Shown: positions 2,584 through 32,440 of the stretch, one piece after another
Position numbering within the stretch: the first letter of the stretch is position 1
Layout: each line of letters opens with the position of its first letter
From: an uncultured Candidatus Saccharibacteria bacterium
GTDB taxonomy: Bacteria > Patescibacteriota > UBA1384 > DTJR01
Length of the DNA stretch: 64,000 bases
Assembly (NCBI GenBank): GCA_964487045.1
Contig: CAZAOT010000003.1
Span: forward strand, 72,983-136,982
Direction: 5' to 3'
Program-made: the position numbers and the translations under genes
The notes under the pieces: generated by a model
Databases searched by the model: none
Told to the model about the DNA's origin: nothing
What the model saw: only the letters and a program-made list of their open reading frames with translations

Positions 2584-3657
2584 CTAGGATTTGCCCCAAT
2601 CGAGATCGGGGTCTTCGAGGTCGAATGATCGTCCGCGGATGAATGGATAGATGCGGGTGATCGAGAGGTTGAGGTGCTCAATGGTTTCACGGCTGAGGAT
2701 TGGCTTGGGCTTGTTGCGAAGTGCCCCGAACAACCGATGGACTTCATAGTCATTCATCTGCAGCAGCAGAAGCGTTGGATTGGCGTCTTGGAAATGCTCA
2801 GAAGACGAGATGAACTCATAACAGCGTTCAAGCTCGCTGGCAAACGGCTTGCGATTAGCGTTGAGCGGTACGTAACAGTTAGCGTACATCCAATCGCGTA
2901 GTCGCCAGAATTCCTTGGCTTCGTCGCTCTTAGAGAAACTGATCCGACCTACCGATGCCGATTCCCTTACCAGGGCATTTGCGAAGTTGAGCAGCCTCTC
3001 TTCCTTGGTTCGTCCGAAGCACATCGCTTGATGGTCGGCCTCTTCGAAGCCTGCTCCGATCCGCAAACCATCCTCGATGTCAGAGAACATGTAGATTTTG
3101 TCTACGATGTTCACCAGGCGAAACTCCTGAGGAAGCCATATGTACTTCTGCCGAGAAGTGCCTGAGTGGTGGTAGATTCCAAGCAGAGTTTCATAGGCCA
3201 GGTCGAGACCTTTGCCCGAGTGTTCAATTCTCTGTAGGTTCAGGCAGGCGATAATGCGGTGGTCGATCGTCAAACCACACAGCTTCGAGATTGTCTCCTC
3301 TCCAAAATGACCGAAGGGTGCGTGGCCGGTGTCATGCCCTAGCCCAACCGCTTCTGTCAAGTACTCATTTAGCTTGAGGAACCAGGCTATGAGCTTAGCG
3401 AGACTTGCAACCTCCATGATGTGAAGCAGTCGATCATTACTGGTCGATTCTTCTCTTCCGATGAAGACTTGGGTCGTTCCATGCTTGCGAAACAGGGACT
3501 CGCTATTGCCGACCCAGTAAGCATCCTCAATGAAGCCTCGCTTACCGGTTGGTCTCCTTCGCCCTCCCTCTTTCTTTGGTCGTCGTCCGCGACTCATCTC
3601 TTCTTGGAACCGTAGGTGCGCCAAGCACCCACGATATCTCTTGTCGAGGTTTAACAC
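2584..3657 (-). CDS. HD-domain phosphohydrolase, dGTP triphosphohydrolase-like
   Basis: HD motif region LGHDTGHAPFGHFGE. Arg/Lys-rich N-terminus. Visibly higher G+C than host genes. Hairpin (GGCCGCC...GGCGGCC) after the stop. The true start is uncertain. Confidence 0.7.
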   Translation of the reverse strand: MLNLDKRYRGCLAHLRFQEEMSRGRRPKKEGGRRRPTGKRGFIEDAYWVGNSESLFRKHGTTQVFIGREESTSNDRLLHIMEVASLAKLIAWFLKLNEYLTEAVGLGHDTGHAPFGHFGEETISKLCGLTIDHRIIACLNLQRIEHSGKGLDLAYETLLGIYHHSGTSRQKYIWLPQEFRLVNIVDKIYMFSDIEDGLRIGAGFEEADHQAMCFGRTKEERLLNFANALVRESASVGRISFSKSDEAKEFWRLRDWMYANCYVPLNANRKPFASELERCYEFISSSEHFQDANPTLLLLQMNDYEVHRLFGALRNKPKPILSRETIEHLNLSITRIYPFIRGRSFDLEDPDLDWGKS

Positions 3658-3728: not shown

Positions 3729-4154
3729 TTATGAAGCGTCTTCTTTCGTTTCAACGTATCTGCCAAGATCATCACGATCTTCAGCCTTGGCGCCCTTTGG
3801 CAATAGTTTTACTGAAATTTTAAATTTTCGAGTCGAGCCGTCTTGATCGGTGATCATGTCAGTTTTCTTTTCATTATAAAAATCCATCAACTCGACCGAG
3901 AGAATATCTCTTAGGGTCTTTATCTCATCCAGGTTTTCCCTAATGTCTTCGGCGAGCTTGGCATTTCCTTCTTGATTAAAAATTGCATCTCTGACTTCTT
4001 TGCGTTTTTTTGCAGCCGATTTTGCCTCCTCGGCAATTTGAGTGTAGGAGGCATCATTTTCAAGGGCGGAGCGAAGTAGCTCTTTAGCTTTTTTATTTTC
4101 TTCTTCTAGTTTTTCAATAATTCCGATTCTTTCTTTGATGACCGATAAATCCAT
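3729..4154 (-). CDS. hypothetical coiled-coil protein
   Basis: GGAGCGGAGG lies 5 nt upstream of the ATG at 4154 (MDLSVIKE...). The track ORF extends to 4208 through the leader hairpin and is likely over-extended. Confidence 0.55.
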   Translation of the reverse strand: MDLSVIKERIGIIEKLEEENKKAKELLRSALENDASYTQIAEEAKSAAKKRKEVRDAIFNQEGNAKLAEDIRENLDEIKTLRDILSVELMDFYNEKKTDMITDQDGSTRKFKISVKLLPKGAKAEDRDDLGRYVETKEDAS

Positions 4155-4300
4155 AATTGCCTCCGCTCCTTGTCCAGCCCTTCGCGAAGGGCTGGACCGG
4201 AAGTCCACCTGGAGCGAAATCTATTTGCAGATTTCTTAAATTAAGAATACTGCAAGAGATTATGCGAAGGTGGACACGCTTATTTTTTACCTTAAGATTG
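4145..4300 (-). promoter_or_regulatory. Structured 5' leader: nested hairpins ending in a perfect 13-bp palindrome immediately 5' of the SD GGAGCGGAGG
   Basis: Minus-strand reading: GTGTCCACCT...(GAAATCT-gcaaat-AGATTTC)...AGGTGGAC-TTCCGG-TCCAGCCCTTCG/CGAAGGGCTGGA-caaGGAGCGGAGGcaattATG. Shares the CTTCCGG / GGAGCGGAGG frame with the leaders at 12424 and 21440. Confidence 0.45.
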
Positions 4301-4326
4301 TAACACTATTTTCTTTACGCCAAAAA

Positions 4327-10013: not shown

Positions 10014-10074
10014 AATAAGTGCCTGCCTGCCGGTAGGCAGGGCTTTCCGCCTGTTCTTTTCTGTTATAAAGTTT

Positions 10075-12216: not shown

Positions 12217-12423
12217 GACGACTCTGTTTTAAAAGTGAAGATTACGGAACTTTTTTTATAATAATTAGGATTGACTTTTTTGTAATAAACACAAGAATTG
12301 GGATATCATTAAGTTATTAGTAATAATAAAATATCCCAGTCACATTTCACCCTCTCGCAATATTCTTAATCTAAGAAATTTGCGAACCTGCCTACCGGCA
12401 GGCAAGTAGGGATCAAAGTGACG

Positions 12424-12477
12424 GGACTTCCGGAATTGCTTCCTGCCTTGGAGCGCAATTCTCGGAGCGGAGGAAAT
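12424..12477 (+). promoter_or_regulatory. Conserved 5' leader motif: GGGACTTCCGG - GAATTGC...GCAATTC hairpin - GGAGCGGAGG - ATG
   Basis: ~50 nt, near-identical to 21440..21487 (minus strand). The frame CTTCCGG / GGAGCGGAGG is also found at 4145..4200. Confidence 0.5.
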
Positions 12478-12975
12478 ATGGCAAAGCCAACTAAATACGC
12501 AACTCTAATCTGTTTTGTGCTCATGATAGTCGCTGCGATATGCGCCTATATTGGTTATCGCAATCAATCAGCGATTGTTATTGTCCTAGGTCTATTGCCA
12601 ACGGTTATTTATGAAGTCTATCGAACAGAAGGCGAATCAACCCGTGCTTCAAGTTGGCTGATGTTGTTTGTGCTGGTAGCCGAAGCAATCTTAATTTTGT
12701 TTAAGATCAATTTTGATCTCGGGCAATATCTTGGACAATCTGATGCAATAATTGGTGGATCAGTAGTGCCACTTGGCGATATAAAGATTTTGGCTCCAGC
12801 AATTATGGCTCTACTCTCAGTAATTTTATTTACCCGAACAGCCGGAATATATACAAAGTGGTTATCGGTGATAATTTTTGCAGTATCTTTCGTGCTTATT
12901 TATGTTATTTCTCCCGAAGGGTTTTCGGGACTTATAAAATCTGCCATTAATCAGGTTATTTATTGGGGATTCTAA
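12478..12975 (+). CDS. integral membrane protein
   Basis: Start moved to the ATG at 12478 (GGAGG 5 nt upstream), because the track's upstream extension runs through the conserved leader. Four or five TM helices. Confidence 0.6.
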   Translation: MAKPTKYATLICFVLMIVAAICAYIGYRNQSAIVIVLGLLPTVIYEVYRTEGESTRASSWLMLFVLVAEAILILFKINFDLGQYLGQSDAIIGGSVVPLGDIKILAPAIMALLSVILFTRTAGIYTKWLSVIIFAVSFVLIYVISPEGFSGLIKSAINQVIYWGF

Positions 12976-16473: not shown

Positions 16474-17739
16474 GTGGACAAAGAAGCGATCCAAGGCGCC
16501 CGCAGGGCGCTTCTGCTCAAGAAGCTTGAAGTAGCATCAACGACCAAGGAATGCACCCTTGCGTTCCAGGGTCTCAAGCTCTACAGAGATGACCTTTCGA
16601 TTGTCGCCACTCGTAAGAGAGCGATTGAGCTCGCAGCTTCGGCAGGCGACATGGATGAGGTTCGTCGCTTTCCGTATGATGTGGGTATCTTCTCTCTGGG
16701 AGATCAGGCTTCCGAGTTCTTTCGTAAGGCCATGCTGCTTTGCAGGCCTGAAGAAGTATACGACTTCACAGGCAACTTCGGCTATTACGCCGATGAAGTT
16801 GTTAGCTTCCTTGTCGAGGGGCTTACCGATCCGCTCAAGCTGACTCGACTAGCGATGCGACTCGGAGCGGAGGGTCTGCTTGAGCGCGGACAGGAAGTGA
16901 TCGCTCGGGCTGCTGAACTGGCTGCAAGCTGGGAAGTGTGCGGTTATGTCGGGACGATACACTATGCGCCGCTTCCGACAGGGTTTCTGACCATGGCCGT
17001 CCTTCTCGCTGAGGGGCAGAAGGGTTACGATGCTCCTCTCGAAGTTTGTGGGTGGATGAAGGCTTCGCTCAACGACCCGCTCGAATTCAGACAAGCAGCG
17101 GCTGTTGCCGAGCTGCTTGATGCGCCAAACAAGCGTATCAGGCGGGTAGCCGGAGAGCGGATCAGGCAGGCTTACCAGGAGAAACTGAGCGGCCAAGATG
17201 GCGACTTCTATATCCAAAGCGCCTGGAACGTCGTTTGCGATGCCCGCGATGCGCTTCCGGAACTGGCTGCAGAGCTGACCGCTGATCTCGTGGTGCGTCT
17301 GACAGATGCGGTACCAGCCTGTCAGGACTTTTCGGAGGCAAAGTCGCATCTTGAAGTCGCTTCCGCAATGGAGGACTTCGGGATCGATGGAGTCTACTGG
17401 CCGGCAGCCATGCGTGCGATGGAGCTGGCAGAGGGCTGTGATGATATCCTGGCGTTGGTGCGCCTTGGCATTCATGTCCAGGAGCTCACCGAGGCTGTCC
17501 TGGTAATGGCTGCAACCGAAGATGATATCATTGCAGTCATACAGCGCAACCCGAACTTCTCTGGTGAGTGGACGTTGCCTCTTTGCGAGCGGATCTTCGA
17601 CTATCGGCGCCAGAGGGCGCAGACGATCGAGGACTTCATGATTCTGCATCACCTGACCAAGGACCCGGTCAAACTGGCCGAGGTCGAGGATCGCATCCAG
17701 GAGCTCATCGCTCCATACCATACCGAGCCTGAGGAGTAA
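16474..17739 (+). CDS. hypothetical all-alpha protein (G+C-rich)
   Basis: GTG start at 16474, 6 nt after AGGGAGG (the track used TTG at 16450). Terminator follows. The opposite-strand ORF 16849..17754 is a shadow. Confidence 0.55.
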   Translation: MDKEAIQGARRALLLKKLEVASTTKECTLAFQGLKLYRDDLSIVATRKRAIELAASAGDMDEVRRFPYDVGIFSLGDQASEFFRKAMLLCRPEEVYDFTGNFGYYADEVVSFLVEGLTDPLKLTRLAMRLGAEGLLERGQEVIARAAELAASWEVCGYVGTIHYAPLPTGFLTMAVLLAEGQKGYDAPLEVCGWMKASLNDPLEFRQAAAVAELLDAPNKRIRRVAGERIRQAYQEKLSGQDGDFYIQSAWNVVCDARDALPELAAELTADLVVRLTDAVPACQDFSEAKSHLEVASAMEDFGIDGVYWPAAMRAMELAEGCDDILALVRLGIHVQELTEAVLVMAATEDDIIAVIQRNPNFSGEWTLPLCERIFDYRRQRAQTIEDFMILHHLTKDPVKLAEVEDRIQELIAPYHTEPEE

Positions 17740-19009: not shown

Positions 19010-20209
19010 ATGAAAAAAATTGCTTTAAGTTTACTTGCGATATTTGTATTATTTTCTTTTGTTGCAATTAAGCCAGTTCTAGCCGAGGATAGCCAAAATA
19101 CGATAAAGATCTATGAATTTTGGAGTAAATATTGTCCTCACTGCAAGGCCGAAAATGAATTTTTAACTAAGATTTCTAAGGAGAGAGGGGACTTTGAAGT
19201 AATTTCTTATGAAGTTACCTCAGATCAAGGTAGCGCAGCTTTATTTAAAAAATTCTCCGATGCGTGTGGTAACAAGGGCTATGGTGTCCCAGCGCTCTAT
19301 ATTGGAGATCGATCGGTAATAGGATTTGAGAGTGCCGAAACAACGGGTAAGGAGATCGTTACGGTGCTTGATTCATTTAAAGGCAAAGATTATCCAGATC
19401 CACTGAAAATTGTCGAGAGTGGGGGAGGCTTCAAGTCGGGGAGTGAGCTCTGCAGCAAAGAATCTATTGAGACAAAAAGAAAAATTCCGCTACTTGGCGA
19501 GGTGGATTTAGCTAAATTTTCTGCACCGGCTTTAGCGGTGGTTCTTGGAACGGTCGATGGATTTAACCCATGCGCAATGTGGGCGCTAGTGGCTCTGCTT
19601 ACTCTGCTCGTCTCGCTTGGTAGCCGAAAAAGGTTATTACTGGTCGGAGGTACTTTCCTAATCACCTCTTGGCTGATCACCTTCTTCTTCTTGTCGGCCT
19701 TTATGAATGCATTTACATTTGTAAAATTTGATTTAGCGATGAGGATTGTGATTGGGGTTGTAGCGATCTATACCTCATATCAATTATTTAAAAGTTATCA
19801 GAAAGAAACCGAAGAGTGTAAAGTTAATTCAGGCAAGGGAAGAATTTATAAACAGATAGAAAAGCTCTCTAGCTCCAAGGTGATCCCCTTCTTGATCTTT
19901 GGTGCGATCGCTCTTGCGCTGATGGTCAATGTCGTAGAATTTATGTGCTCGATCAATCTTCCGGTTGTTTTCACTAAAGTTCTCTCAATGGTGAATGTTA
20001 GTCCTCTGGGACGATATCTGTATATCGCTCTGTACGACGTTTTTTATATGCTCGACGATATCATCGTATTCTTGATCGCTCTTTTCTCGATGAAGGCTTT
20101 TACTGGATTTAATCAAAAATACACCCGTTTTACGAAATTAGTGGGTGCTATCGTGATGTTTATTTTGGCTGTGATGTTACTGTTCTTTCCGAGGCTATTG
20201 GCGTTTTAG
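19010..20209 (+). CDS. thioredoxin-fold domain fused to a DsbD/CcdA-like membrane thiol:disulfide transporter
   Basis: Signal peptide; CPHC thioredoxin motif; TM domain with a conserved Cys in NPCAMW. Confidence 0.8.
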   Translation: MKKIALSLLAIFVLFSFVAIKPVLAEDSQNTIKIYEFWSKYCPHCKAENEFLTKISKERGDFEVISYEVTSDQGSAALFKKFSDACGNKGYGVPALYIGDRSVIGFESAETTGKEIVTVLDSFKGKDYPDPLKIVESGGGFKSGSELCSKESIETKRKIPLLGEVDLAKFSAPALAVVLGTVDGFNPCAMWALVALLTLLVSLGSRKRLLLVGGTFLITSWLITFFFLSAFMNAFTFVKFDLAMRIVIGVVAIYTSYQLFKSYQKETEECKVNSGKGRIYKQIEKLSSSKVIPFLIFGAIALALMVNVVEFMCSINLPVVFTKVLSMVNVSPLGRYLYIALYDVFYMLDDIIVFLIALFSMKAFTGFNQKYTRFTKLVGAIVMFILAVMLLFFPRLLAF

Positions 20210-20918: not shown

Positions 20919-21434
20919 TTATATTCTTCTTCTGGAGCTTAGAATAACAATTACGATAATCGGTGCGAGGAGCCAAAGGGTATAATAATCTTTTAGGAAA
21001 TGAACGAAGTGAGTTTGGGAGATAATTTGTGCTTGTGAGGCATCTGGCATGTATTTAAAGATTGTGGCAGAGATTAAAATGCCAGTAATGACTGAATAGA
21101 AGAAGGTCTCGAGCGGTGCCATTAAGGAGTGATCTCTTCCTACTGAGATATCAGCTTTAGAGGCTACCAAGGATACTACGAGCAGAAATAATACTATTTT
21201 GATTGTTGCTGGCGATGCGTCAGAAGTGATCCAGGTATTAGCAACGGTGAGCTTGCCTTCAAAAAACTGCTTGATCGGGTCCGCCCATACCGAAACGATC
21301 ACCATTCCCATATAACAGGCTAGAAGAGCGGACATAATCTTGTCCCGCTGCATCATAAAACCATATAAAACGGTGATAGCAACAAATATACCTAAAAACA
21401 AATCCCAAGTTGGTACGGTTGACGCTACTTGAAT
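20919..21434 (-). CDS. integral membrane protein; start codon uncertain, possibly ATT at 21434
   Basis: The track ORF (to 21476) reads through the conserved leader motif. By analogy with 12478, the start should be 5 nt after GGAGCGGAGG, where the codon is ATT. The next in-frame TTG is at 21401. Confidence 0.45.
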   Translation of the reverse strand: MQVASTVPTWDLFLGIFVAITVLYGFMMQRDKIMSALLACYMGMVIVSVWADPIKQFFEGKLTVANTWITSDASPATIKIVLFLLVVSLVASKADISVGRDHSLMAPLETFFYSVITGILISATIFKYMPDASQAQIISQTHFVHFLKDYYTLWLLAPIIVIVILSSRRRI

Positions 21435-21439
21435 ATTCC

Positions 21440-21487
21440 CCTCCGCTCCGTGAATTGCGCTCTTCGTCGGAAGCAATTCCGGAAGCC
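21440..21487 (-). promoter_or_regulatory. Second copy of the conserved leader motif (GGGGCTTCCGG-GAATTGC..GCAATTC-GGAGCGGAGG)
   Basis: Near-identical to 12424..12473. Confidence 0.5.
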
Positions 21488-21620
21488 CCGCATCAATTCA
21501 CGAAGCGAAACACGAATGAATAATTCGAGTGGAGCATTCGAGAATTCGGTGCTGGGGCATTTCATTATTTTCCCTAACAAAAACATTATACCAAATTCTT
21601 ATATAACTTTTACAATAGTG

Positions 21621-23942
21621 CTATTTAGATTCAATAAATATTGGTGATTGAGTGATGTTTATTGATTTTGAATTGGCTTCTTTTATGTTGCCTAGCTTGT
21701 CGGTTATTGTAACTAGTCCGCTTAAAACGCTGGATAGATCGATATCTGTAGAACAAGTTCGATCTTCATATCTCCATGCTTTGTTGATCTCGTTGTGAGC
21801 ATCGCTGTCTGTTGGGTTTTTAACATTCCAATACGGTTCACACCAAGCAGAGTATTTTTTCTTACCATCGTTGTCGGTAATTTTTATGATAAATAACGGG
21901 TTAACTTCCTCGTGGTTATTTGCAGGTTTCTGGATAAATTCAATTTTTGAAGCATATTTTATATTATTAGCTAAGATCCTATATGCATCAAATGATAACT
22001 TTTTCTGATAACCGTTATTTTGAATCGAATATATACCTTTTAGGAGGTGGTGGCATAATGAATTCTGATTGTTGATTTCGTAATATCCTTCGGAATTTGT
22101 TTGAGATGGGCACGTTCTTTCTTGTATTGTGTCAGCAGAACTATTGCGATATCCATTCCATGATAATCCGCTTATCCCAAGCGATGAAATTGTTAAAAAT
22201 CTTTTAATTAGATCATCTGATTGAAAATTTTGCGAAAATGTCATCGAAAAACCAGTTGCTACACCATTATTATCATCGATATATTTACTATCGCTTGGAG
22301 ACCCGATTTCTGTAGCGAATATTGGCTTATTGCAATTATTTCTTCCTGAGCAAAGGGTGTCGTAAATTTCCATATTTTTCTGCGTTCTATCCCAATATTG
22401 TGTATAGCCCATGAATCTATTTGGATGAAGGTTGATATGAAATTCATGAGCATCGACAAAGTTATTGTATGAATTTTGTTTTAATACTTCGAAATATGAA
22501 AGGTTATTCATACTAGTCTTGTCCGGGTTCATAAATCCGGCGCTTACCACCCGACAGTCACTGCACATTTTTTTGACAACTGAGCGCAGGCCCTGGCTGA
22601 GATCATAAGCTACTCCTTCATAAATGACTTGCTCTCCCTCCAGGCTAGCTAGTATATTTCCTTGAGTATCTTTGTATGAGCCTGTAGTGATAAGCGAAAG
22701 TGCTTCTGCCGGTATGCCAAAGGCGCTGTCGGAATTAAAGTTGCCATCGGGTTCGTTCCATATTTGCCAATACTTGATGCTATCTTTATATAAATTAAGT
22801 CTAGGTAAAACCATTCCCTTAAAATAATGCTCTCTTACTAATGCCTCTAACTTATTCCAGTCGGCGTTTGCTGGTCGAGTGTTGATATTCCCGTTTGGAG
22901 AATACCCACTATATAGCCTAATATCTTGCCTAACCTTGTCGTAATGTGTATATTTTTGTCCTGAACTGTCCAGAATATCGCTACCCCTATCGGTTTGAAT
23001 TGTAATTCGAGGGAGGAAGTTTCCCATCAAAATCCGTCCATCTCGTTTAAAATTTTGGGCGGCAGCTAGGTCATTATTTCTTTCTGATCTTTTTTCGTCA
23101 AAGTTGATATATCTTAAAAAATTTACTTGTAGCTCTGAAATGTCGCTAGTGAAATTTGTTCCTTGGGTGTCAGTATTGAGTACGGGGGAAGGGTTGAACC
23201 CAATTAAATATTTACGATTTAAGTATGATTCAGATGCATCTGATATTTCTGTTATTTTTACATTTGGCGTAAAGAAATAAACCCAAACATTAGATGCGCT
23301 AGTCAGTCTCTGAGCGTTATATTCGTTTGCAATTGTAATCTTTTTAAAAACAATTGACTTATTTTCGCTAACTGCGCTGTAAATATTTGAAGAAATTGCT
23401 TTTTGATCAATAAGGGCATCTGCTGAGAAGATATTTCCACTGGATAATTTAAAGCTGGTTTTTTTAAGGAAATCCTGTTTTGTTTCTGGCTTAGAGGGAG
23501 AAACTATATGCCAACCAGGTCGATAGTTACTCTGAATATTAGATAGAGTTGTTTTATTTATCTTTGGAAAAGTCCGACCAGAATTTTTATTATATGTTAG
23601 ATATGAGAGTTTAGGATTTAGGCCAATATCTGAGATACAGGGCATCTCCTGAACTACGGCATAACCCTGGCAGTTATTTGATAGATAAGTCCACCCGGTG
23701 TTGTTAGTATTTGGATCGTTGTAAGTGTATATTAAAACGCCTGAATCAAGAACCTCTCTTTGCGTAATAGAATTTAGATCCTGCCCGTTTATCACGCTCC
23801 ACCCAGGTGGAATAGATACAGAGTTGGAGTCTGAATCAGCAAAGATATTGTTTTTTAACAAGAAATGAATCCCGATTAAAAGAATTAGGACGACAGAAGC
23901 CAATAAAACCGATTTCCTAAAAATTTTCTTTTTAACTATCAC
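21621..23942 (-). CDS. secreted glycoside hydrolase, clan GH-A (GH5/GH39-like), N-terminal membrane anchor
   Basis: WQIWNEPD (acid/base Glu in NEP) and IFATEIGSP (nucleophile Glu), with spacing appropriate for a (beta/alpha)8 GH-A fold. Confidence 0.65.
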   Translation of the reverse strand: MIVKKKIFRKSVLLASVVLILLIGIHFLLKNNIFADSDSNSVSIPPGWSVINGQDLNSITQREVLDSGVLIYTYNDPNTNNTGWTYLSNNCQGYAVVQEMPCISDIGLNPKLSYLTYNKNSGRTFPKINKTTLSNIQSNYRPGWHIVSPSKPETKQDFLKKTSFKLSSGNIFSADALIDQKAISSNIYSAVSENKSIVFKKITIANEYNAQRLTSASNVWVYFFTPNVKITEISDASESYLNRKYLIGFNPSPVLNTDTQGTNFTSDISELQVNFLRYINFDEKRSERNNDLAAAQNFKRDGRILMGNFLPRITIQTDRGSDILDSSGQKYTHYDKVRQDIRLYSGYSPNGNINTRPANADWNKLEALVREHYFKGMVLPRLNLYKDSIKYWQIWNEPDGNFNSDSAFGIPAEALSLITTGSYKDTQGNILASLEGEQVIYEGVAYDLSQGLRSVVKKMCSDCRVVSAGFMNPDKTSMNNLSYFEVLKQNSYNNFVDAHEFHINLHPNRFMGYTQYWDRTQKNMEIYDTLCSGRNNCNKPIFATEIGSPSDSKYIDDNNGVATGFSMTFSQNFQSDDLIKRFLTISSLGISGLSWNGYRNSSADTIQERTCPSQTNSEGYYEINNQNSLCHHLLKGIYSIQNNGYQKKLSFDAYRILANNIKYASKIEFIQKPANNHEEVNPLFIIKITDNDGKKKYSAWCEPYWNVKNPTDSDAHNEINKAWRYEDRTCSTDIDLSSVLSGLVTITDKLGNIKEANSKSINITQSPIFIESK

Positions 23943-23966
23943 TTATCTAATAGTAACAGACTAGAT

Positions 23967-24599
23967 TTATCTCTGCCACCAAGATGATTTCTTTTGTTTA
24001 TCGAGATCTTTGAGCTTTTGCCATAAATCTTTTTGTTCTTTAGTAAGACGCTCTGGGAAACGGATTCTAATAATTATAATTAAATCACCTTTCTGACCAT
24101 TTCTGGTTGCTCGTCCTTTTTCTTTGATTCGGTATTGTGTTCCGTCTTGAGTCCCAGGATGTATCTGGAGGGTGATTTTCTCGTCCCCTACTTGAAGGTC
24201 GAATTCATCTCCAAGTACAGCTTGGGCAGGAGAGATTTCAACTTCTGCTTGTACGGTAGCGAAAGCATTTGAAAAAAAGTCTCCGAAAATGTCGCCTAAG
24301 CCACCCATATTGCCAAAATTGAATTCAAAACCTTCACCGCCAAAGTCATAACCACCAGATTGATAACCACTAAATCCGCCTTGGCCGCCGCTACCAGAGA
24401 AGCCACTTTGGCCAAAACGATCATATTGGGCTCTTTTTTGGGGATCGGAAAGAACCTGGTATGCTTCGTTAATTTTTTTAAATTCGGCCTCATCGCCTCC
24501 TTTATCCGGATGATGCTTCAAAGCAAGCTTTCGATAAGCTTTTTTTATCTCGTCTGCGGAGGCGTTTTTGTCTATGCCGAGTAGTTTGTAGTAATCCAT
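23967..24599 (-). CDS. J-domain co-chaperone, short DnaJ/CbpA-like form lacking the zinc-finger domain
   Basis: J domain with HPD (YYKLLGI...[12 protein letters not shown]), a Gly/Phe-rich linker, then only a short C-terminal domain; 210 aa. Confidence 0.85.
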
Positions 24600-24708
24600 T
24601 TTTATATTATTTTTGGGTGTTAAAATTAATTAATCCGCATCTGCGGATAACCTACTGCCAAAGCTAATTTTACCTATTTAGGAGCGGGATGTAAAGAGGG
24701 CTTTACTT

Positions 24709-25512
24709 TTAGAACATATCTTCTTGACGGGTAGGGGTCTCGCTTAGCAACGCCTGAGCAGTTGAAGTTGCAGTGGCCTGAGCATTGGCCGCTACTGATC
24801 CAGAAACTGATGGCTGAGTGTTTAGAATCTCATTAGCAGCGGTATTTCCGGCATTATCGATAACATTTATGCTCCAGCCAGTATCCATAGGATAAAGCTT
24901 AGTCTGAGCAATTATTCCAGGATCGATGAGTTTAAATTTCTCAGTCTGAGTAAATTGCTCATAAGCTGCTGAGAATAGATTTAAGCTACCCGTTTGGTTT
25001 GTCTGACACTTAAGATCGGATGCAATGTCACGTCTAGCGATAAAACTTCTAGTTTTTTTAACCGAACCATAGGAATTAAGTTCAACTAACCAATAATAAT
25101 CCTTAGAAAAATCGTCGTTATAGAATAGGAAACCCTGAATATTCTGGCTTGTTAATTGTGCGCCGTAGAATGTAATAATCGTTCCACAATATTTTGCTCC
25201 ACCCTTTAAAGCTCTCTGCGCGTCTTCTAGGGCTAATTGATAATTTGTCTTGTAAGTATCGTCAATTTGAGTCTTCTCTTCGACAAAACTATCAATTTGC
25301 TGATAGCTTTTAGGCTGACTAGAATTCTGATTGCTTGCATTAGAAACGGAGGAGCTTGTCGCCGTTGCCGCCAGGCTGCCGGCTGCAGCAGGCAGAGCTT
25401 CAGAAGCAATATTAGAACTATTAACCTTGGACGTCGTATCTGATTTTTTAGTGCAGGCGCTCAAAGAAAGCGATATCACTACTACAGCAAAAACAAACAC
25501 AAATTTTTTCAT
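24709..25512 (-). CDS. lipoprotein, function unknown
   Basis: Signal peptide with lipobox LSLSAC; Ser/Thr/Ala-rich linker. Confidence 0.7.
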   Translation of the reverse strand: MKKFVFVFAVVVISLSLSACTKKSDTTSKVNSSNIASEALPAAAGSLAATATSSSVSNASNQNSSQPKSYQQIDSFVEEKTQIDDTYKTNYQLALEDAQRALKGGAKYCGTIITFYGAQLTSQNIQGFLFYNDDFSKDYYWLVELNSYGSVKKTRSFIARRDIASDLKCQTNQTGSLNLFSAAYEQFTQTEKFKLIDPGIIAQTKLYPMDTGWSINVIDNAGNTAANEILNTQPSVSGSVAANAQATATSTAQALLSETPTRQEDMF

Positions 25513-25613
25513 TATTTATATTCTACCAAAAGACCCCGGAACCTGCACACGGCCTGGAAGCGGCTACAACCAGCTCGATAATGCAGGATTCCGGGGTCTT
25601 TCTTTTAAAGAAC

Positions 25614-27512
25614 TTACTTTTCTTCTTTGGTTTCCTCAGTCTTTTCTTCTGCTTTGTCAGATTTTTCCTCTGACTCTTCAGCCTTCTCCTCTGCTTTTTC
25701 TTCAGGAGCAGCGGCTGAGTAAAGCTCTTGCCCAACCTTCTGGATAGTTTCAGAAAGTGCATCTGTTGCCGACTTGATCTTGTCGGACTCTTCGCCCTTC
25801 AAAGCTTCTTTAACTGCTTCAACTTTCTCTTCAACTTCCTTCTTGGTTTCGGCTTTGACTTTATCGCCAGCGTCTTTTAGGGCTTTTTCACTAGAATAGA
25901 CAAGTGTCTCGGCAGTATTTCTAGTTTCTATCTCTTCCCTTTTCTTTTTATCTTCCTCGGCGTGGGTTTCAGCATCTTTGCGCATTTTTTCTACTTCTTC
26001 TTCTGAGAGACCACTTGAAGCGGTAATGGTAATTTTTTGTTCTTTTCCGGTTGCCTTATCCTTGGCCTTAACGTTTAGGATTCCATTTGCGTCTATATCG
26101 AAGCTGACCTCAATTTGTGGTACACCACGAGGTGCTGGGGGAATGCCATCGAGAGTGAATCTTCCTAGAGTCCTATTGTCAGCAGCCATCTCTCTTTCAC
26201 CTTGAAGGACATGGATTTCTACTTGTGGTTGATTGTCAGCTGCAGTAGAAAAGACCTGGCTTTTCGATGTTGGGATGGTTGTATTTCTCTCAATAAGCTT
26301 AGTCATAACTGATCCTAGAGTCTCAATTCCAAGCGATAGAGGAGTGACATCTAGTAGGAGGATATCTTTAACTTCTCCTGCTAAGACTCCACCCTGAATG
26401 GCAGCACCGAGGGCAACTGCTTCGTCTGGGTCAACGCCCTTAGATGGTTCTTTGCCGAATATTTCCTTAACCTTGTCTTGAACTGCTGGCATTCTAGTCA
26501 TACCTCCGACCAAGATTACCTCATCGATATCCTTGGCTTCGACACCGGCATCTTTCATTGCTTTCTGGCAAGGTTTGGTGGTTTTTTCAATGAGGTCGCC
26601 AACTAGAGAAAGAAGCTTGGCTCTATTGATAGTCATGACCAAATGTTTTGGTCCAGAAGCGTCAGCGGTGATAAATGGAAGGTTTATTTCGGCTTCTTGC
26701 TTGCTTGAAAGCTCAATCTTGGCTTTTTCGGCTGCTTCTCTGATTCTTTGAAGTGATGCGGCATCAGCTGTTAGGTCGACACCTTGATCTTTTTTGAACT
26801 CATCAACAATGAAGTCCATAATCTTTTGGTCAAAGTCATCTCCTCCTAAGTGAGTGTCTCCGTTAGTTGCTTTGACTTCTAGGACATCGCCGCCAACTTC
26901 TAGAATAGTGATATCGAAAGTTCCGCCTCCAAGGTCGAAGACAGCTACTTTACCTTCTTGTTTCTTATCAAGTCCATATGCAAGAGCTGCAGCAGTTGGT
27001 TCGTTTATAATTCTCTTTACATCAAAACCAGCAATTTTACCTGCATCTTTGGTAGCTTGACGCTGAGAGTCATTGAAATAGGCCGGTACGGTGATAACTG
27101 CTTCTGTTACCGCCTCACCCAAGTAGTCCTCTGCGTCCTTTTTAATTTTTTGCAAAATAAAGGCTGAGACCTCCTGAGGTGAATAGTCCTTACCAGCAAT
27201 TTTTACTTCAACCGAATTGTTCTTGCCTTCTACGATTTCATAAGGCATTAATTTTTTGTCTCTTGTCACCTCTTCGTCGTCAAAACGTCGTCCGATCAAA
27301 CGCTTGACCGAAGACACGGTGTTTTTTGGGTTGGTAACTGCTTGGCGCTTAGCTAGTTGGCCAACCAGTCTTTCTCCCGACTTAGTTTCCGCGACCATAG
27401 AAGGAACCAGCTTCCCGCCTTCTGCTGATGGCATGAGCTTGGGCTTTCCGCCTTCGATAACAGCGGCAGCCGAGTTGGTCGTTCCGAGGTCGATTCCGAT
27501 TATTTTACCCAT
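25614..27512 (-). CDS. dnaK: molecular chaperone DnaK (Hsp70)
   Basis: [10 protein letters not shown] and DLGGGTFD signatures; start set at [10 protein letters not shown] with AAAGGAAG RBS; promoter TTGACA-18-TACAAT at 27620..27591; EEK-rich C-tail. Confidence 0.95.
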
Positions 27513-27639
27513 ATTGCTTCCTTTCTTCGCTTTAGGATTAGGTTTGCGCTGCTTATGCAACCCACCTATAAATTTTTATTAACTAAAATAATTGTAAAGT
27601 AGACTTTACATTTTGTCAAGAGTCAGTTACTTAATAGGT

Positions 27640-28551
27640 TTAAATTCTTTCGAGTTCAATTGAACTAGCACCAGCTTTGATGGTAAGTTCAATTTTTTTA
27701 CTAGATGAGTCAAAATTGTCAGAAGTATAATCGTCACCCGACTTCTTTAGTCCAACTTCAGTGAAATTATTAGAGCTGGCACCAGATTTTGAGTTTACTT
27801 TAAGCCCAGAGGACTTTGGCACTTTGATTTTAAGAGAGCTTGCTCCAATATCAAACTGACCAGAAAGCTTATCTAGCTTATCGCCAAGCCTAATATTGTA
27901 TGAAGATACTCCGCTTTTTACGATCAGATTTTCCAGATTTACTTCTTGAAGTTCAAGATTTCCGTCGACCGCTCCAGTGTTTAGCTCGAGGGAGGTTCGC
28001 AATGACTTATTAAGGCTTAGTTGCCAATCATTTTTAATTCGATTAAAGAAGCTAATTCTATTTGATGAAGTGCTAAGCTCAATATTTTCTTCGCCATCAC
28101 TAATACTTCGATTAACGTCAACAGGAAAATTTCCATCGATAGTTCCACTGATCAGTTGATCGGAATCTCCATCAATGTTTAATTTTGCCGCTCCTGTTTT
28201 GATGGTTACCTTGGCGCTTTTGGACTGATCGGAGGCACTTTCATCAATATATTGGGTAGCTGAAGCTTGGTTGTAAGTAGATGAATTCTTATCAAAGGAG
28301 TAATTGCCGGAAGTAATGACCCAAGCAAGTCCAGCGATAATCATAATTACTACAACAATATTTAAGATGATTTGACCAATAGTTGAGAGGGATTTAGAGA
28401 TTATTGAGAGTCCGGCAACAATTAAGATAAGTGGCCAAAGCTTCCAGATACTAGCCCAAATTGTTGGACTCAAAACGCCATAATTTATAAGCAGGAAGAT
28501 CAGTCCTATGAAGATGACTATTAGGCCCCAAATTAATTTGCCTATGTTCAT
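27640..28551 (-). CDS. LiaF-like / DUF4097-type membrane protein (cell-envelope stress module)
   Basis: N-terminal TM helices and a C-terminal beta-rich repeat domain; overlaps the PspC gene (ATGA). Confidence 0.55.
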   Translation of the reverse strand: MNIGKLIWGLIVIFIGLIFLLINYGVLSPTIWASIWKLWPLILIVAGLSIISKSLSTIGQIILNIVVVIMIIAGLAWVITSGNYSFDKNSSTYNQASATQYIDESASDQSKSAKVTIKTGAAKLNIDGDSDQLISGTIDGNFPVDVNRSISDGEENIELSTSSNRISFFNRIKNDWQLSLNKSLRTSLELNTGAVDGNLELQEVNLENLIVKSGVSSYNIRLGDKLDKLSGQFDIGASSLKIKVPKSSGLKVNSKSGASSNNFTEVGLKKSGDDYTSDNFDSSSKKIELTIKAGASSIELERI

Positions 28552-32404: not shown

Positions 32405-32440
32405 AGAGGAAAGCCCCCCGCCATGCGGCAGGGGGCCTTG
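32405..32440 (-). terminator. Rho-independent terminator
   Basis: Minus strand: GGCCCCCTGCCGC-ATG-GCGGGGGGC followed by TTTCCTCTTTTTT. Confidence 0.6.

What the first reader, a model, noticed from the sequence alone, without database searches (positions are those of the whole stretch)
12424..12480. Conserved 5' leader family (CTTCCGG - hairpin - GGAGCGGAGG - start) upstream of three unrelated genes
Two ~50-nt leaders are near-identical:
- GGGACTTCCGGAATTGCTTCCTGCCTTGGAGCGCAATTCTCGGAGCGGAGGaaatATG (12424..12480, + strand)
- GGGGCTTCCGGAATTGCTTCCGACGAAGAGCGCAATTCACGGAGCGGAGGggaatATT (21487..21432, - strand)

Each has an inverted repeat GAATTGC...GCAATTC ending right at the Shine-Dalgarno. A third leader (4200..4145, - strand) keeps the flanks GGACTTCCGG ... 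GGAGCGGAGG-5nt-ATG but swaps the hairpin for a perfect palindrome TCCAGCCCTTCG/CGAAGGGCTGGA.

The frame is conserved while the stem differs. That is what an RNA structural element or a protein operator looks like, for example a translational attenuator occluding the SD, or the site of an RNA-binding regulator. The downstream genes are two membrane proteins and a coiled-coil protein.
Basis: seen in the sequence. Interest (0 to 1): 0.6.

Follow-up and report, generated by a model that had tools for sequence, protein, structure and literature searches.

The report
New structured mRNA leader in CPR bacteria
The three look-alike stretches are real and form the last part of a larger folded RNA element, not in Rfam or the papers I could search, that some ultra-small (CPR) bacteria place directly on the ribosome-binding site of assorted stress, envelope and metabolic genes; what it senses or does is still unknown.

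Summary
In detail: three intergenic copies of CTTCCGG-hairpin-GGAGCGGAGG-start, against 0 expected. The 50-nt motif is only the 3' module of a 90-150-nt 5'-UTR element. A long-range helix P1 (YCCNCC / GGNGGA) encloses a very variable inner domain. Hairpin P3 follows directly; its base is CUUCCG paired with the first CGGAG. The gene's own Shine-Dalgarno GGAGG follows 0-1 nt later. I found 17 distinct copies in 278 kb of CPR DNA (labels: Berkelbacteria, WS2, Saccharibacteria), all sense-oriented at a start codon. Downstream genes include dnaK (3), a membrane protein with an AUU/AUC start (4), DUF308 (2), YkuD, TIM, a nucleotidyl transferase, DeoC and YARHG. Covariation is strong for P3 (96% paired, score 0.50 vs 0.19 shuffled) and significant for P1 (p about 1e-4). 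G·U pairs and strand-asymmetric scores point to RNA. No Rfam family matches. Orthologues at 92% protein identity lack the element, and homology resumes exactly at the distal GGAGG, so it is a portable module docked on an existing SD. The covariation-supported register leaves the SD outside the helix, and predicted SD accessibility equals that of element-free orthologous leaders. A structural RNA is shown. SD occlusion is not. Most likely it is a cis-acting translational operator with an unknown trigger.

The parts
12334..12343 (+). Copy 1, P1 5' strand (UCCCAGUCAC)
   Evidence: Complementary to 12418-12426 (GUGACGGGA) with one bulged A. Own-partner duplex -12.1 kcal/mol, best of 15 possible partners. 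Present in the MFE fold.
12344..12417 (+). Copy 1, inner domain P2 (type A: CCCU..CGCAA-UA-UUCUUAA/UUAAGAA-AU-UUGCG..AGGG), with an inserted GC palindrome at 12387-12402
   Evidence: Aligns with the type-A domains of copy 3, L189, L240, L373 and L371. CCCU/AGGG replaces AAUCU/AGAUU, which is compensatory. Partial R2 hit at 12354-12387. Palindrome found.
12418..12426 (+). Copy 1, P1 3' strand (GUGACGGGA), directly abutting P3
12427..12467 (+).
   Evidence: R1 75.5 bits, R3 72.9 bits. Pair statistics.
12468..12480 (+). Copy 1, Shine-Dalgarno unit CGGAGG (12468-12473), 4-nt spacer, ATG (12478-12480) of a 165-aa membrane protein gene (12478-12975)
   Evidence: Orthologues start at the same MAKPT.
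21432..21557 (-). Copy 2, whole element. P1 5' CCCCAGCAC 21557-21549; type-B inner domain 21548-21493, including hairpin CGAAU-UAUUC-AUUCG; P1 3' UGCGGGG 21492-21486; P3 21485-21446; SD unit CGGAGG 21445-21440; AUU start 21434-21432 of gene 20919-21434
   Evidence: (68.8 bits). Orthologous leaders in L374, L371 and L372 carry a compensatory frame, CUUUCG/CGAAG.
21585..21593 (-). Copy 2, extended -10 promoter TGGTATAAT (probable transcript start about 7 nt downstream, about 20 nt before P1)
   Evidence: Read. Conserved as TG(G/C)TATAAT in all orthologues. Not found by the simple scanner, which requires a -35 box.
4152..4274 (-). Copy 3, whole element. P1 5' UCCACC 4274-4269; type-A inner domain 4268-4210; P1 3' GGUGGA 4209-4204; P3 4203-4166 (CUUCCGG + perfect 12/12 palindrome + AGGAG); SD unit CGGAGG 4165-4160; ATG 4154-4152 of gene 3729-4154 (operon with the HD gene 2584-3657 and YtxH 2186-2509)
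   Evidence: R2 90 bits at 4204-4274. R1 64.2 bits at 4152-4210. MFE fold. Pfam.
4297..4305 (-). Copy 3, extended -10 promoter TGTTACAAT
   Evidence: Read. Aligns with TGCTATAAT of the 92% orthologue and TG(C/T)TATAAT of the other orthologues.

Best explanation
The reported motif is the 3' module of a lineage-restricted, cis-acting, structured 5'-UTR RNA element of CPR/Patescibacteria. Anatomy, 5' to 3': a 15-25-nt A/U-rich tail after an extended -10 promoter; helix P1 (YCCNCC... with ...GGNGGA) closing a variable inner domain P2 (from a 6-bp hairpin to about 60 nt); with no spacer, hairpin P3, whose base is CUUCCG paired to the first CGGAG unit through a nearly invariant U·G closing pair; then 0-1 nt later the gene's own Shine-Dalgarno GGAGG and the start codon 4-6 nt on. 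SHOWN: the structure (covariation in P1, P2 and P3), strand specificity, fixed position on the RBS, occurrence on unrelated genes in several genomes, and rapid gain/loss with the 3' boundary exactly at a pre-existing SD. INFERRED: it is a translational operator. The sequence-conserved P1/P3 junction (GGA-CUUYCG ... CGRAG-CG-GGAGG) is held against the SD. It is either recognised by a trans-acting regulator (protein or RNA) that controls 30S access, or it is released so that one of the element's anti-SD-like strands (CUUCCG, or an upstream YUYCGC block) captures the SD, with the first CGGAG unit acting as a decoy. The signal is unknown. The gene set (dnaK three times, DnaJ-neighbouring membrane protein, DUF308, YkuD, YtxH operon) hints at stress or envelope control.
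For: Recurrence: 3 copies in the window against 0 expected. 17 distinct copies in 278 kb of CPR DNA, and no others with a more sensitive model.
P3 structure: 95.8% of cells paired, 9/16 pairs with changes on both sides, covariation 0.50 vs 0.19 in shuffles (0/500) and at most 0.13 for slid registers.
Register A inside the 'invariant' frame: 97.6% paired, C-G/U-A alternation 11:5, score 0.31 vs 0.15. L244/L371 carry the compensatory insertion CUUCCCG/CGGGAG.
P1: own vs cross duplex energy -9.0 vs -6.7 kcal/mol, permutation p about 1e-4. Type-A P1-P2: 87.8% paired, 0.28 vs 0.13.
RNA level: about 34 G·U cells in P3, counted from the pair table. Sense 76-90 bits vs antisense 20-34 bits.
Position: all 17 copies lie in gene orientation, ending 4-6 nt before a start codon.
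Specificity: of 200 loci selected only for the exact frame, CPR members score 52-81 bits and all others at most 31.5.
Unexplained conservation that suggests recognition or alternative pairing: invariant U9·G64, A63, C65, G66. Registers A and B are within 1 kcal/mol in 7/17 copies. SD-occluded folds are the MFE in L032, L371-DUF308, L373 and window copy 2.
Module docked on the SD; also L376/L378 vs L374.
Against: No regulator, ligand or signal was identified, and there are no expression data.
Predicted SD accessibility with the element (mean 0.42) equals that of orthologous leaders without it (0.43; Mann-Whitney p=0.53).
No single SD-occluding alternative is conserved. Register B shows no covariation and is at least 3 kcal/mol worse than register A in about half the copies. 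The 5'-block:SD complement beats composition-matched shuffles only in a subclass (mean z -0.76).
The downstream genes are heterogeneous.
The sample is small, partly found through the frame itself, and phylogenetically related, so shuffle statistics overstate independence.
The pair alignment was fitted to the model.
Confidence: 0.5

Rival explanations
1. A constitutive 5'-UTR module with no switching. A stable 5' structured domain protects the mRNA from 5'-end-dependent decay, and the P3 hairpin insulates a strong, exposed SD from upstream sequence. It would be a portable 'high-expression leader' whose gain or loss simply tunes expression level.
For: The covariation-supported fold leaves the SD free. 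SD accessibility is no different from plain leaders. The inner domain is dispensable and variable, 33-103 nt from P1 start to P3. The element is rapidly gained and lost at orthologous genes, replacing AT-rich leader exactly up to the SD. The genomes encode a beta-CASP/RMMBL RNase.
Against: This does not explain the sequence conservation of paired positions at the P1/P3 junction, the invariant unpaired C65-G66, the U·G pair, or the recurring anti-SD-like YUYCGC blocks. Any stable hairpin would protect or insulate equally well.
Confidence: 0.2
2. A direct sensor: a small-molecule or ion riboswitch whose pocket is the P1 internal loop and P1/P3 junction, or an RNA thermometer for a heat-shock/envelope regulon.
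For: Three independent dnaK genes and several stress or envelope genes carry it. Two near-isoenergetic folds exist in many copies. The leader size and the promoter-to-start position are typical of riboswitches.
Against: The inner domain is not conserved; in the copy-2 orthologues it is only a 6-bp GC hairpin, so there is no conserved aptamer core. Gene functions are incoherent for a metabolite. Predicted SD opening shows no consistent temperature trend at 15/37/50 C. dnaK of the window, L371, L374 and L376 lack an intact leader; L371 has only an orphan P1-P2 domain upstream of its dnaK promoter. No Rfam riboswitch or thermometer model matches; ROSE_2 gives 16 bits on the wrong strand.
Confidence: 0.12
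3. A selfish or mobile small repeat (MITE/REP-like), or a leader cassette spread by recombination, with no host function. The conserved ends are what mobility requires.
For: Presence/absence polymorphism at 92% protein identity. An orphan P1-P2 copy without P3/SD sits upstream of the L371 dnaK promoter, flanked by CTTGAC...CTTGAC. The 5' consensus CCUCCUUCGCUC is partly the reverse complement of the 3' GGAGCGGAGG. A separate tiny GC palindrome is inserted at different places in three copies.
Against: Copy number is low, and no extra copies are found by two models in 265-278 kb. 17/17 copies are in sense orientation at fixed spacing to a start codon. Compensatory changes and G·U pairs in internal stems indicate selection on the RNA fold. 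The copy-2 gene keeps the leader across four genomes while its sequence diverges. The copy-3 comparison is a replacement, not a clean insertion with target duplication. No transposase is associated.
Confidence: 0.08
4. A DNA-level operator: the palindrome is bound by a dimeric repressor between the promoter and the start codon, CIRCE-like.
For: Inverted repeats lie between a promoter and a start codon, some at dnaK.
Against: The stems differ completely between copies in one genome: GAATTGC... vs GTCCAGCCCTTCG. There are many G·U (G·T) pairs that would be mismatches in DNA and C·A on the other strand. Model scores are strongly strand-asymmetric. No CIRCE is present. The dnaK promoters already carry a different conserved inverted repeat in the spacer.
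Confidence: 0.03
5. Trivial origins: a recent local duplication of one upstream region, the genome's ordinary RBS context, or an N-terminal coding extension (the ORF finder extends all three genes through P3: GTG 12418, GTG 4208, TTG 21476).
For: Copies 1 and 2 are 83% identical over 58 nt. Open frames run through P3 in all three copies.
Against: Copies 1 and 2 have different upstream domains (type A vs type B). The same P3 stem occurs in L376 from a distant genome. Only 3 of about 60 genes carry the frame, while GGAGG occurs 101 times. The reading frame relative to the motif differs between copy 1 and copies 2 and 3 (read). Stems covary as RNA. Orthologous proteins start at the annotated Met.
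Confidence: 0.01

Closest known systems
Translational operators / SD-adjacent regulatory leaders (e.g. E. coli thrS operator, rpsO pseudoknot, CsrA-bound leaders); comparison from general knowledge
   Same: A structured 5'-UTR element placed directly against the Shine-Dalgarno sequence. It has sequence-conserved helices and junction beyond what folding alone needs, and contains SD-like and anti-SD-like repeats.
   Different: No regulator is known. The element is found on many unrelated genes rather than on one autoregulated gene. P3 loops carry no conserved GGA as CsrA sites do. No csrA family appears in the precomputed Pfam lists of the fetched loci.
RNA thermometers (ROSE, fourU)
   Same: A multi-hairpin leader ending at the SD. 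Some copies lie upstream of heat-shock genes (dnaK). An anti-SD-like pyrimidine strand (CUUCC) is present.
   Different: The covariation-supported register leaves the SD outside the hairpin. There is no U(U/C)GCU/bulged-G or UUUU signature. The Rfam ROSE_2 match is 16 bits, on the wrong strand. There is no consistent in-silico temperature response. Most target genes are not heat-shock genes.
Riboswitch expression platforms with SD / anti-SD / anti-anti-SD logic
   Same: Alternative pairings are possible. An anti-SD block is held in P1 or P3 by an SD-like decoy (GGNGGA, CGGAG), and several copies are predicted to be bistable.
   Different: There is no conserved aptamer, since the inner domain is freely replaceable. 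The regulon is not coherent. No alternative helix shows covariation.
ATPC RNA motif (Rfam RF01067, cyanobacteria)
   Same: This is the only Rfam model with a notable sub-threshold match: copy 3, 25.2 bits, E=0.004, correct strand.
   Different: The score is about half the gathering score (45). The model treats the covarying P2 3' strand as a single-stranded linker and omits P1. Copies 1 and 2 and L189, L193 and L144 give no match. Judged a chance resemblance.
Small intergenic mobile repeats that remodel 5' UTRs (Correia/NEMIS elements of Neisseria, REP/BIME, RUP/BOX); comparison from general knowledge
   Same: Presence/absence polymorphism between close relatives. The element sits between promoter and gene, forms hairpins, and is modular.
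   Different: Copy number is low. Orientation is strictly sense and spacing to the start codon is fixed. There are no clear terminal inverted repeats or target duplications. Compensatory evolution occurs in stems.

Membership tests
Any curated Rfam family (release 15) | Match at or above the family's gathering score | tested here: not met
   Whole window at gathering thresholds: only a tRNA. Permissive scans of all three leaders and of L189/L193/L144: nothing near threshold.
ATPC RNA motif (RF01067) | Score of at least 45 bits and the model's three-stem architecture | tested here: not met
   25.2 bits for copy 3 only. The alignment contradicts the covariation-supported P1/P2. Absent for copies 1 and 2 and for L189, L193 and L144.
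RNA thermometer (ROSE / fourU type) | SD (and often the AUG) base-paired inside the conserved 3' hairpin | tested here: not met
   The conserved, covarying register pairs CUUCCG with the first CGGAG and leaves GGAGG 3' of the helix. The SD-pairing register has no covariation.
RNA thermometer (ROSE / fourU type) | Temperature-dependent opening of the SD | tested here: inconclusive
   In-silico SD accessibility at 15/37/50 C rises in some copies and falls in others.
RNA thermometer (ROSE / fourU type) | Association with heat-shock genes | tested here: inconclusive
   3 of 17 copies are at dnaK and 4 are at a membrane gene next to dnaJ. The rest are at unrelated genes, and four dnaK genes lack an intact leader.
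Metabolite/ion riboswitch | Conserved aptamer core with invariant unpaired nucleotides | tested here: not met
   The domain enclosed by P1 ranges from a 6-bp GC hairpin to about 60 nt of different architectures (types A and B, plain hairpins).
Metabolite/ion riboswitch | Functionally coherent set of controlled genes | tested here: not met
   DnaK, TIM, NTP transferase, DeoC, YkuD, DUF308, YARHG and unknown membrane and coiled-coil proteins.
Metabolite/ion riboswitch | Specific ligand binding that changes the fold | not testable with these tools
   Needs in-line probing or ITC with candidate ligands.
MITE / REP-like mobile repeat | Many dispersed copies, in either orientation, in varied intergenic contexts | tested here: not met
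   3 copies per 64 kb. 17/17 are in sense orientation at a start codon. There are no further hits for the P1-P2 or P3 models in 265-278 kb, apart from one orphan in L371.
MITE / REP-like mobile repeat | Terminal inverted repeats and target-site duplication | tested here: inconclusive
   The 5' CCUCCUUCGCUC is partly complementary to the 3' GGAGCGGAGG, but only in a subclass. CTTGAC flanks the single orphan. The copy-3 comparison shows replacement without duplication.
CIRCE/HrcA operator | TTAGCACTC-N9-GAGTGCTAA inverted repeat | tested here: not met
   0 matches in the window with up to 3 mismatches. The P3 stems differ between copies.
CsrA/Rsm-controlled leader | GGA motifs presented in hairpin loops plus one overlapping the SD; csrA present in the genome | tested here: inconclusive
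   GGA overlaps the SD and the first unit, but P3 loops are variable and lack a conserved GGA. No CsrA Pfam family appears among the precomputed annotations of the fetched loci. Complete genomes were not examined.

The most novel reading that the evidence does not exclude
A portable translational-control cassette. On this reading, a self-contained RNA switch (P1-P2 domain plus a 'decoy-SD' hairpin) moves between genes within CPR genomes by docking onto pre-existing GGAGG Shine-Dalgarno sequences. That would rapidly rewire which genes belong to a post-transcriptional stress/envelope regulon, governed by a still-unknown CPR-specific regulator or signal, in organisms that have very few recognisable transcription factors.
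Probability: 0.2. Interest if true: 0.8.

Novelty: new member of a known kind. Interest (0 to 1): 0.55.

Why it matters
Almost nothing is known about gene regulation in CPR/Patescibacteria. These are ultra-small, mostly uncultivated bacteria with reduced genomes and few recognisable regulators. A covariation-supported leader RNA that sits on the ribosome-binding site of dnaK, cell-envelope genes and central-metabolism genes, and that is swapped in and out of orthologous genes between close relatives, would be a rare handle on post-transcriptional control in this radiation. It gives a concrete orphan motif to test now that a few Patescibacteria are genetically tractable. It also gives annotators a way to correct start codons, and a natural 5'-UTR part for engineering expression in these organisms. 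If the portable-cassette reading holds, it would show regulon membership evolving through the movement of an RNA module rather than through changes in transcription-factor sites.

Tried and rejected
(1) Scans of genome contigs, metagenome contigs and viral contigs for the exact frame returned mostly chance matches in GC-rich DNA and two unrelated gut repeats. Only L032, L189, L240, L144 and L193 were real, and the viral collection gave none. L236 and L207 were left out as doubtful (23.7 and 14.5 bits). L004 (a Clostridia MAG, 29.9 bits) was not accepted.
(2) A naive search for the P1 partner allowing G·U was fooled by U-rich promoter sequence. I replaced it with a permutation test on homologous blocks.
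(3) A contiguous complement of at least 6 bp to the SD block is not discriminating when G·U is allowed.
(4) My first register-B structure string was mis-indexed.
(5) The thermometer idea found no consistent temperature trend.
(6) The general SD-occlusion idea found no accessibility difference from element-free orthologous leaders.
(7) ATPC motif membership was rejected.
(8) Loop-helix pairing of the UAUUC box with the GAAU of P3 was considered. Only about half of the copies have the partner and there is no covariation, so I dropped it (read).
(9) A leader peptide or N-terminal extension was rejected, because the reading frames differ between copies.
(10) Literature searches for CPR, Saccharibacteria, Patescibacteria or Berkelbacteria riboswitches or RNA motifs found nothing relevant.
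(11) Pfam and NCBIfam could not name the three window genes.
(12) The source organism could not be named.
Full report
OBSERVATION. The three sites exist as quoted. CTTCCGG-N15-45-GGAGCGGAGG matches exactly three times in the 64-kb window (4160-4203 minus, 12427-12473 plus, 21440-21485 minus), against 0.00 expected from shuffles. A fourth GGAGCGGAGG at 16864 is inside an ORF and has no partner. Copies 1 and 2 are 48/58 identical. Copy 3 keeps the flanks and has a perfect 12/12 palindrome instead. Each copy ends 4-5 nt before a start codon. GGAGG occurs 101 times in the window (41% G+C) but the frame only three times, so it is not the ordinary RBS context.

THE UNIT IS LARGER. Reading upstream shows that in every copy the 6-9 nt immediately 5' of CUUCCGG (GGUGGA, GUGACGGGA, UGCGGGG) are complementary to a block 70-95 nt further upstream (UCCACC, UCCCAGUCAC, CCCCAGCAC). 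This long-range helix, P1, encloses an inner domain, P2. Extended -10 promoters (TGnTAnAAT) lie about 22-30 nt upstream of P1. They are conserved at orthologous genes, so the element is in the 5' UTR. The simple promoter scanner missed them because it requires a -35 box.

OTHER GENOMES. Exact-frame scans of three public collections gave mostly noise. They did yield five clear members on low-GC contigs: L032 (labelled Saccharibacteria), L189, L240, L144 and L193. A covariance model of the 3' module (R1) was then run on DNA fetched around orthologues of the three window genes, that is, DNA not selected for the motif. It found further, more diverged copies. In total there are 17 distinct copies in 278 kb. 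A broader model built from all 17 finds no more. The window has exactly three.

Downstream genes are as follows:
- the copy-2 membrane protein, in four genomes;
- HSP70/DnaK, in three genomes, one labelled WS2;
- DUF308, in two;
- a YkuD L,D-transpeptidase;
- triose-phosphate isomerase;
- a sugar-nucleotidyl transferase;
- DeoC;
- a YARHG protein, in a genome labelled Berkelbacteria;
- a small membrane protein;
- window genes 1 and 3.
All copies are in gene orientation. As a specificity control, I scored 200 loci chosen only because they contain the exact frame. The CPR members score 52-81 bits and everything else at most 31.5.

STRUCTURE EVIDENCE.
- P3: 95.8% of cells paired. 9 of 16 pairs change on both sides. 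Covariation is 0.50 against 0.19 for shuffles (0/500) and at most 0.13 for slid registers.
- The 'invariant' frame also covaries: CUUCCG/CGGAG, CUUUCG/CGAAG, CUUUUG/CGAAG and CUUCCCG/CGGGAG. For this sub-helix, 97.6% of cells are paired, with a score of 0.31 against 0.15. So CUUCCG pairs with the FIRST CGGAG unit. The distal CGGAGG is the Shine-Dalgarno and lies just 3' of the helix.
- P1: each 5' block pairs better with its own 3' block than with those of other copies (-9.0 vs -6.7 kcal/mol; permutation p about 1e-4).
- Type-A P1-P2 domains: 87.8% paired, 0.28 vs 0.13.
- G·U pairs are frequent, including a nearly invariant U·G at the base of P3, and sense scores far exceed antisense scores (76-90 vs 20-34 bits). 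The fold is therefore an RNA-level, strand-specific one.
- Caveats: the sequences are related, some were found through the frame, and the P3 alignment was fitted to the model.

INNER DOMAIN. P2 is not conserved as an aptamer would be. Type A is AAUCU..UGCAG-UA-UUCUUAA.., type B is a hairpin with a UAUUC loop, the dnaK copies have plain hairpins, and the copy-2 orthologues have only a 6-bp GC hairpin. The distance from P1 start to P3 is 33-103 nt.

TURNOVER. Orthologues of the copy-3 gene at 92, 74, 70, 70 and 53% identity, mostly in conserved synteny, have plain leaders. So do four orthologues of the copy-1 gene. The copy-2 gene keeps the element in four genomes at about 80-83% identity but not at 71% or 68%. 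Aligning the copy-3 region with its 92% orthologue shows homology in the flanking coding sequence, in the promoter, and again exactly from the distal GGAGG. The element thus replaces about 45 nt of AT-rich leader and docks onto a pre-existing SD. GGAGCGGAGG is therefore the element's 3' end (GGAGC) followed by the host SD (GGAGG). One orphan P1-P2 domain without P3 lies upstream of the L371 dnaK promoter.

MECHANISM TESTS. Several SD-occluding alternatives exist. CUUCCG can slide onto CGGAGG (register B): this is pairable in 97% of cells but shows no covariation. It is within 1 kcal/mol of register A in 7 of 17 copies and at least 3 kcal/mol worse in about half. An upstream YUYCGC block can also pair with GCGGAGG. 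Such folds are the MFE in L032, L371-DUF308, L373 and window copy 2. The complementarity exceeds composition-matched shuffles only in a subclass (mean z -0.76). There is no consistent temperature trend. Predicted SD accessibility with the element (mean 0.42) equals that of orthologous leaders without it (0.43; p=0.53). SD occlusion is therefore possible but not demonstrated. What still needs explaining is the sequence conservation at the P1/P3 junction: the U·G pair, A63 and the unpaired C65-G66. I infer a translational operator read by an unknown trans-acting factor, or a decoy-based refolding switch (confidence about 0.5). The main rival is a constitutive stabiliser or insulator leader.

KNOWN FAMILIES. 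No Rfam family reaches threshold. The ATPC match for copy 3 (25 bits against 45) contradicts the supported structure and is not shared by other members. CIRCE is absent. Full-text searches found no description of such a motif in CPR bacteria. That library is incomplete, so prior description cannot be excluded.

VERDICT. This is a real structured 5'-leader RNA family of CPR bacteria that I could not find described. It is a new member of the known kind 'cis-regulatory leader RNA'. Its mechanism and signal are unknown.

Noticed in passing
window 20919-21434 (-); L374 ~9114, L371 ~15479, L372 ~14161, L376 ~9960, L378 ~7915: The copy-2 membrane-protein family appears to start at a non-AUG codon (AUU, AUC or AUA) 4-5 nt after GGAGG in all six genomes examined. 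The in-frame N-terminus (I)QVA.TVPTWD is conserved. Gene callers instead start at a downstream TTG or ATG, which shortens the protein by 12-27 residues.
   Followed up: partly
window 27593-27610; also L371, L372, L374, L375, L376, L378 dnaK promoters: All dnaK promoters carry a conserved inverted repeat, TGT(A/C)AAGTAnnCTTTACA, between the TTGACA -35 box and the -10 box. There is a single site in the window (matched on both strands because it is palindromic) against 0.07 matches expected. It is probably the operator of a heat-shock repressor and is different from CIRCE, which is absent.
   Followed up: partly
window 10022-10041, 12387-12402, (32417-32432); L240 and L371 leaders: A tiny GC-rich palindrome, CCTGCC(TGCC)-loop-(GGCA)GGCAGG, recurs (4 hits against 0.09 expected). 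It is found about 35 nt upstream of the tRNA gene and inserted at different positions inside the P2 domain of three leader copies in three genomes. It looks like an insertable mini-hairpin.
   Followed up: partly
L371 ~19851-19943 (-): An orphan type-A P1-P2 domain (68 bits) without P3 or SD lies between the upstream gene and the dnaK promoter. It is followed by the hairpin GGTCGC...GCGACC and flanked by CTTGAC on both sides. It could be a decayed leader, an independent small RNA or an insertion.
   Followed up: no
window 27511-27590 (-): The window's own dnaK leader has no intact element, but it resembles a decayed one (GGGUUGC..AGCGCAAACC..GCGAAGAAAGGAAG-caau-AUG). The ORF finder's TTG start at 27560 is probably wrong. 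The HSP70 domain begins at residue 20, and an ATG with a spacer sits near 27511.
   Followed up: no
window 12418, 4208, 21476: The mechanical ORF list extends all three downstream genes through the P3 hairpin (GTG/GTG/TTG starts). These extensions are artefacts. The frame relative to the motif differs between copies, and orthologues start at the downstream codon.
   Followed up: yes
L244 9870-10000: The copy-3 orthologue in L244 lacks the element but has a different leader of about 130 nt with a repeated GGAUGAC motif (cgGGATGACgagtacgtcggttcaGGATGACac). It may be another regulatory leader.
   Followed up: no
window 20919-28551 (-): A stress-gene cluster on one strand: LiaF-like (27640-28551), DnaK, an unknown 267-aa protein, DnaJ, an unknown 773-aa protein with no Pfam family, then the copy-2 gene. 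In L378 (WS2), PspC and LiaF-like genes sit beside grpE and dnaK.
   Followed up: partly
L004 2790-2836 (-): A Clostridia MAG locus scores 29.9 bits with R1 and has GGGGACTTCCGG, an imperfect hairpin and GGAGCGGAGG, but no obvious start codon after it. It is probably chance among frame-selected loci, but it is the best non-CPR hit.
   Followed up: no
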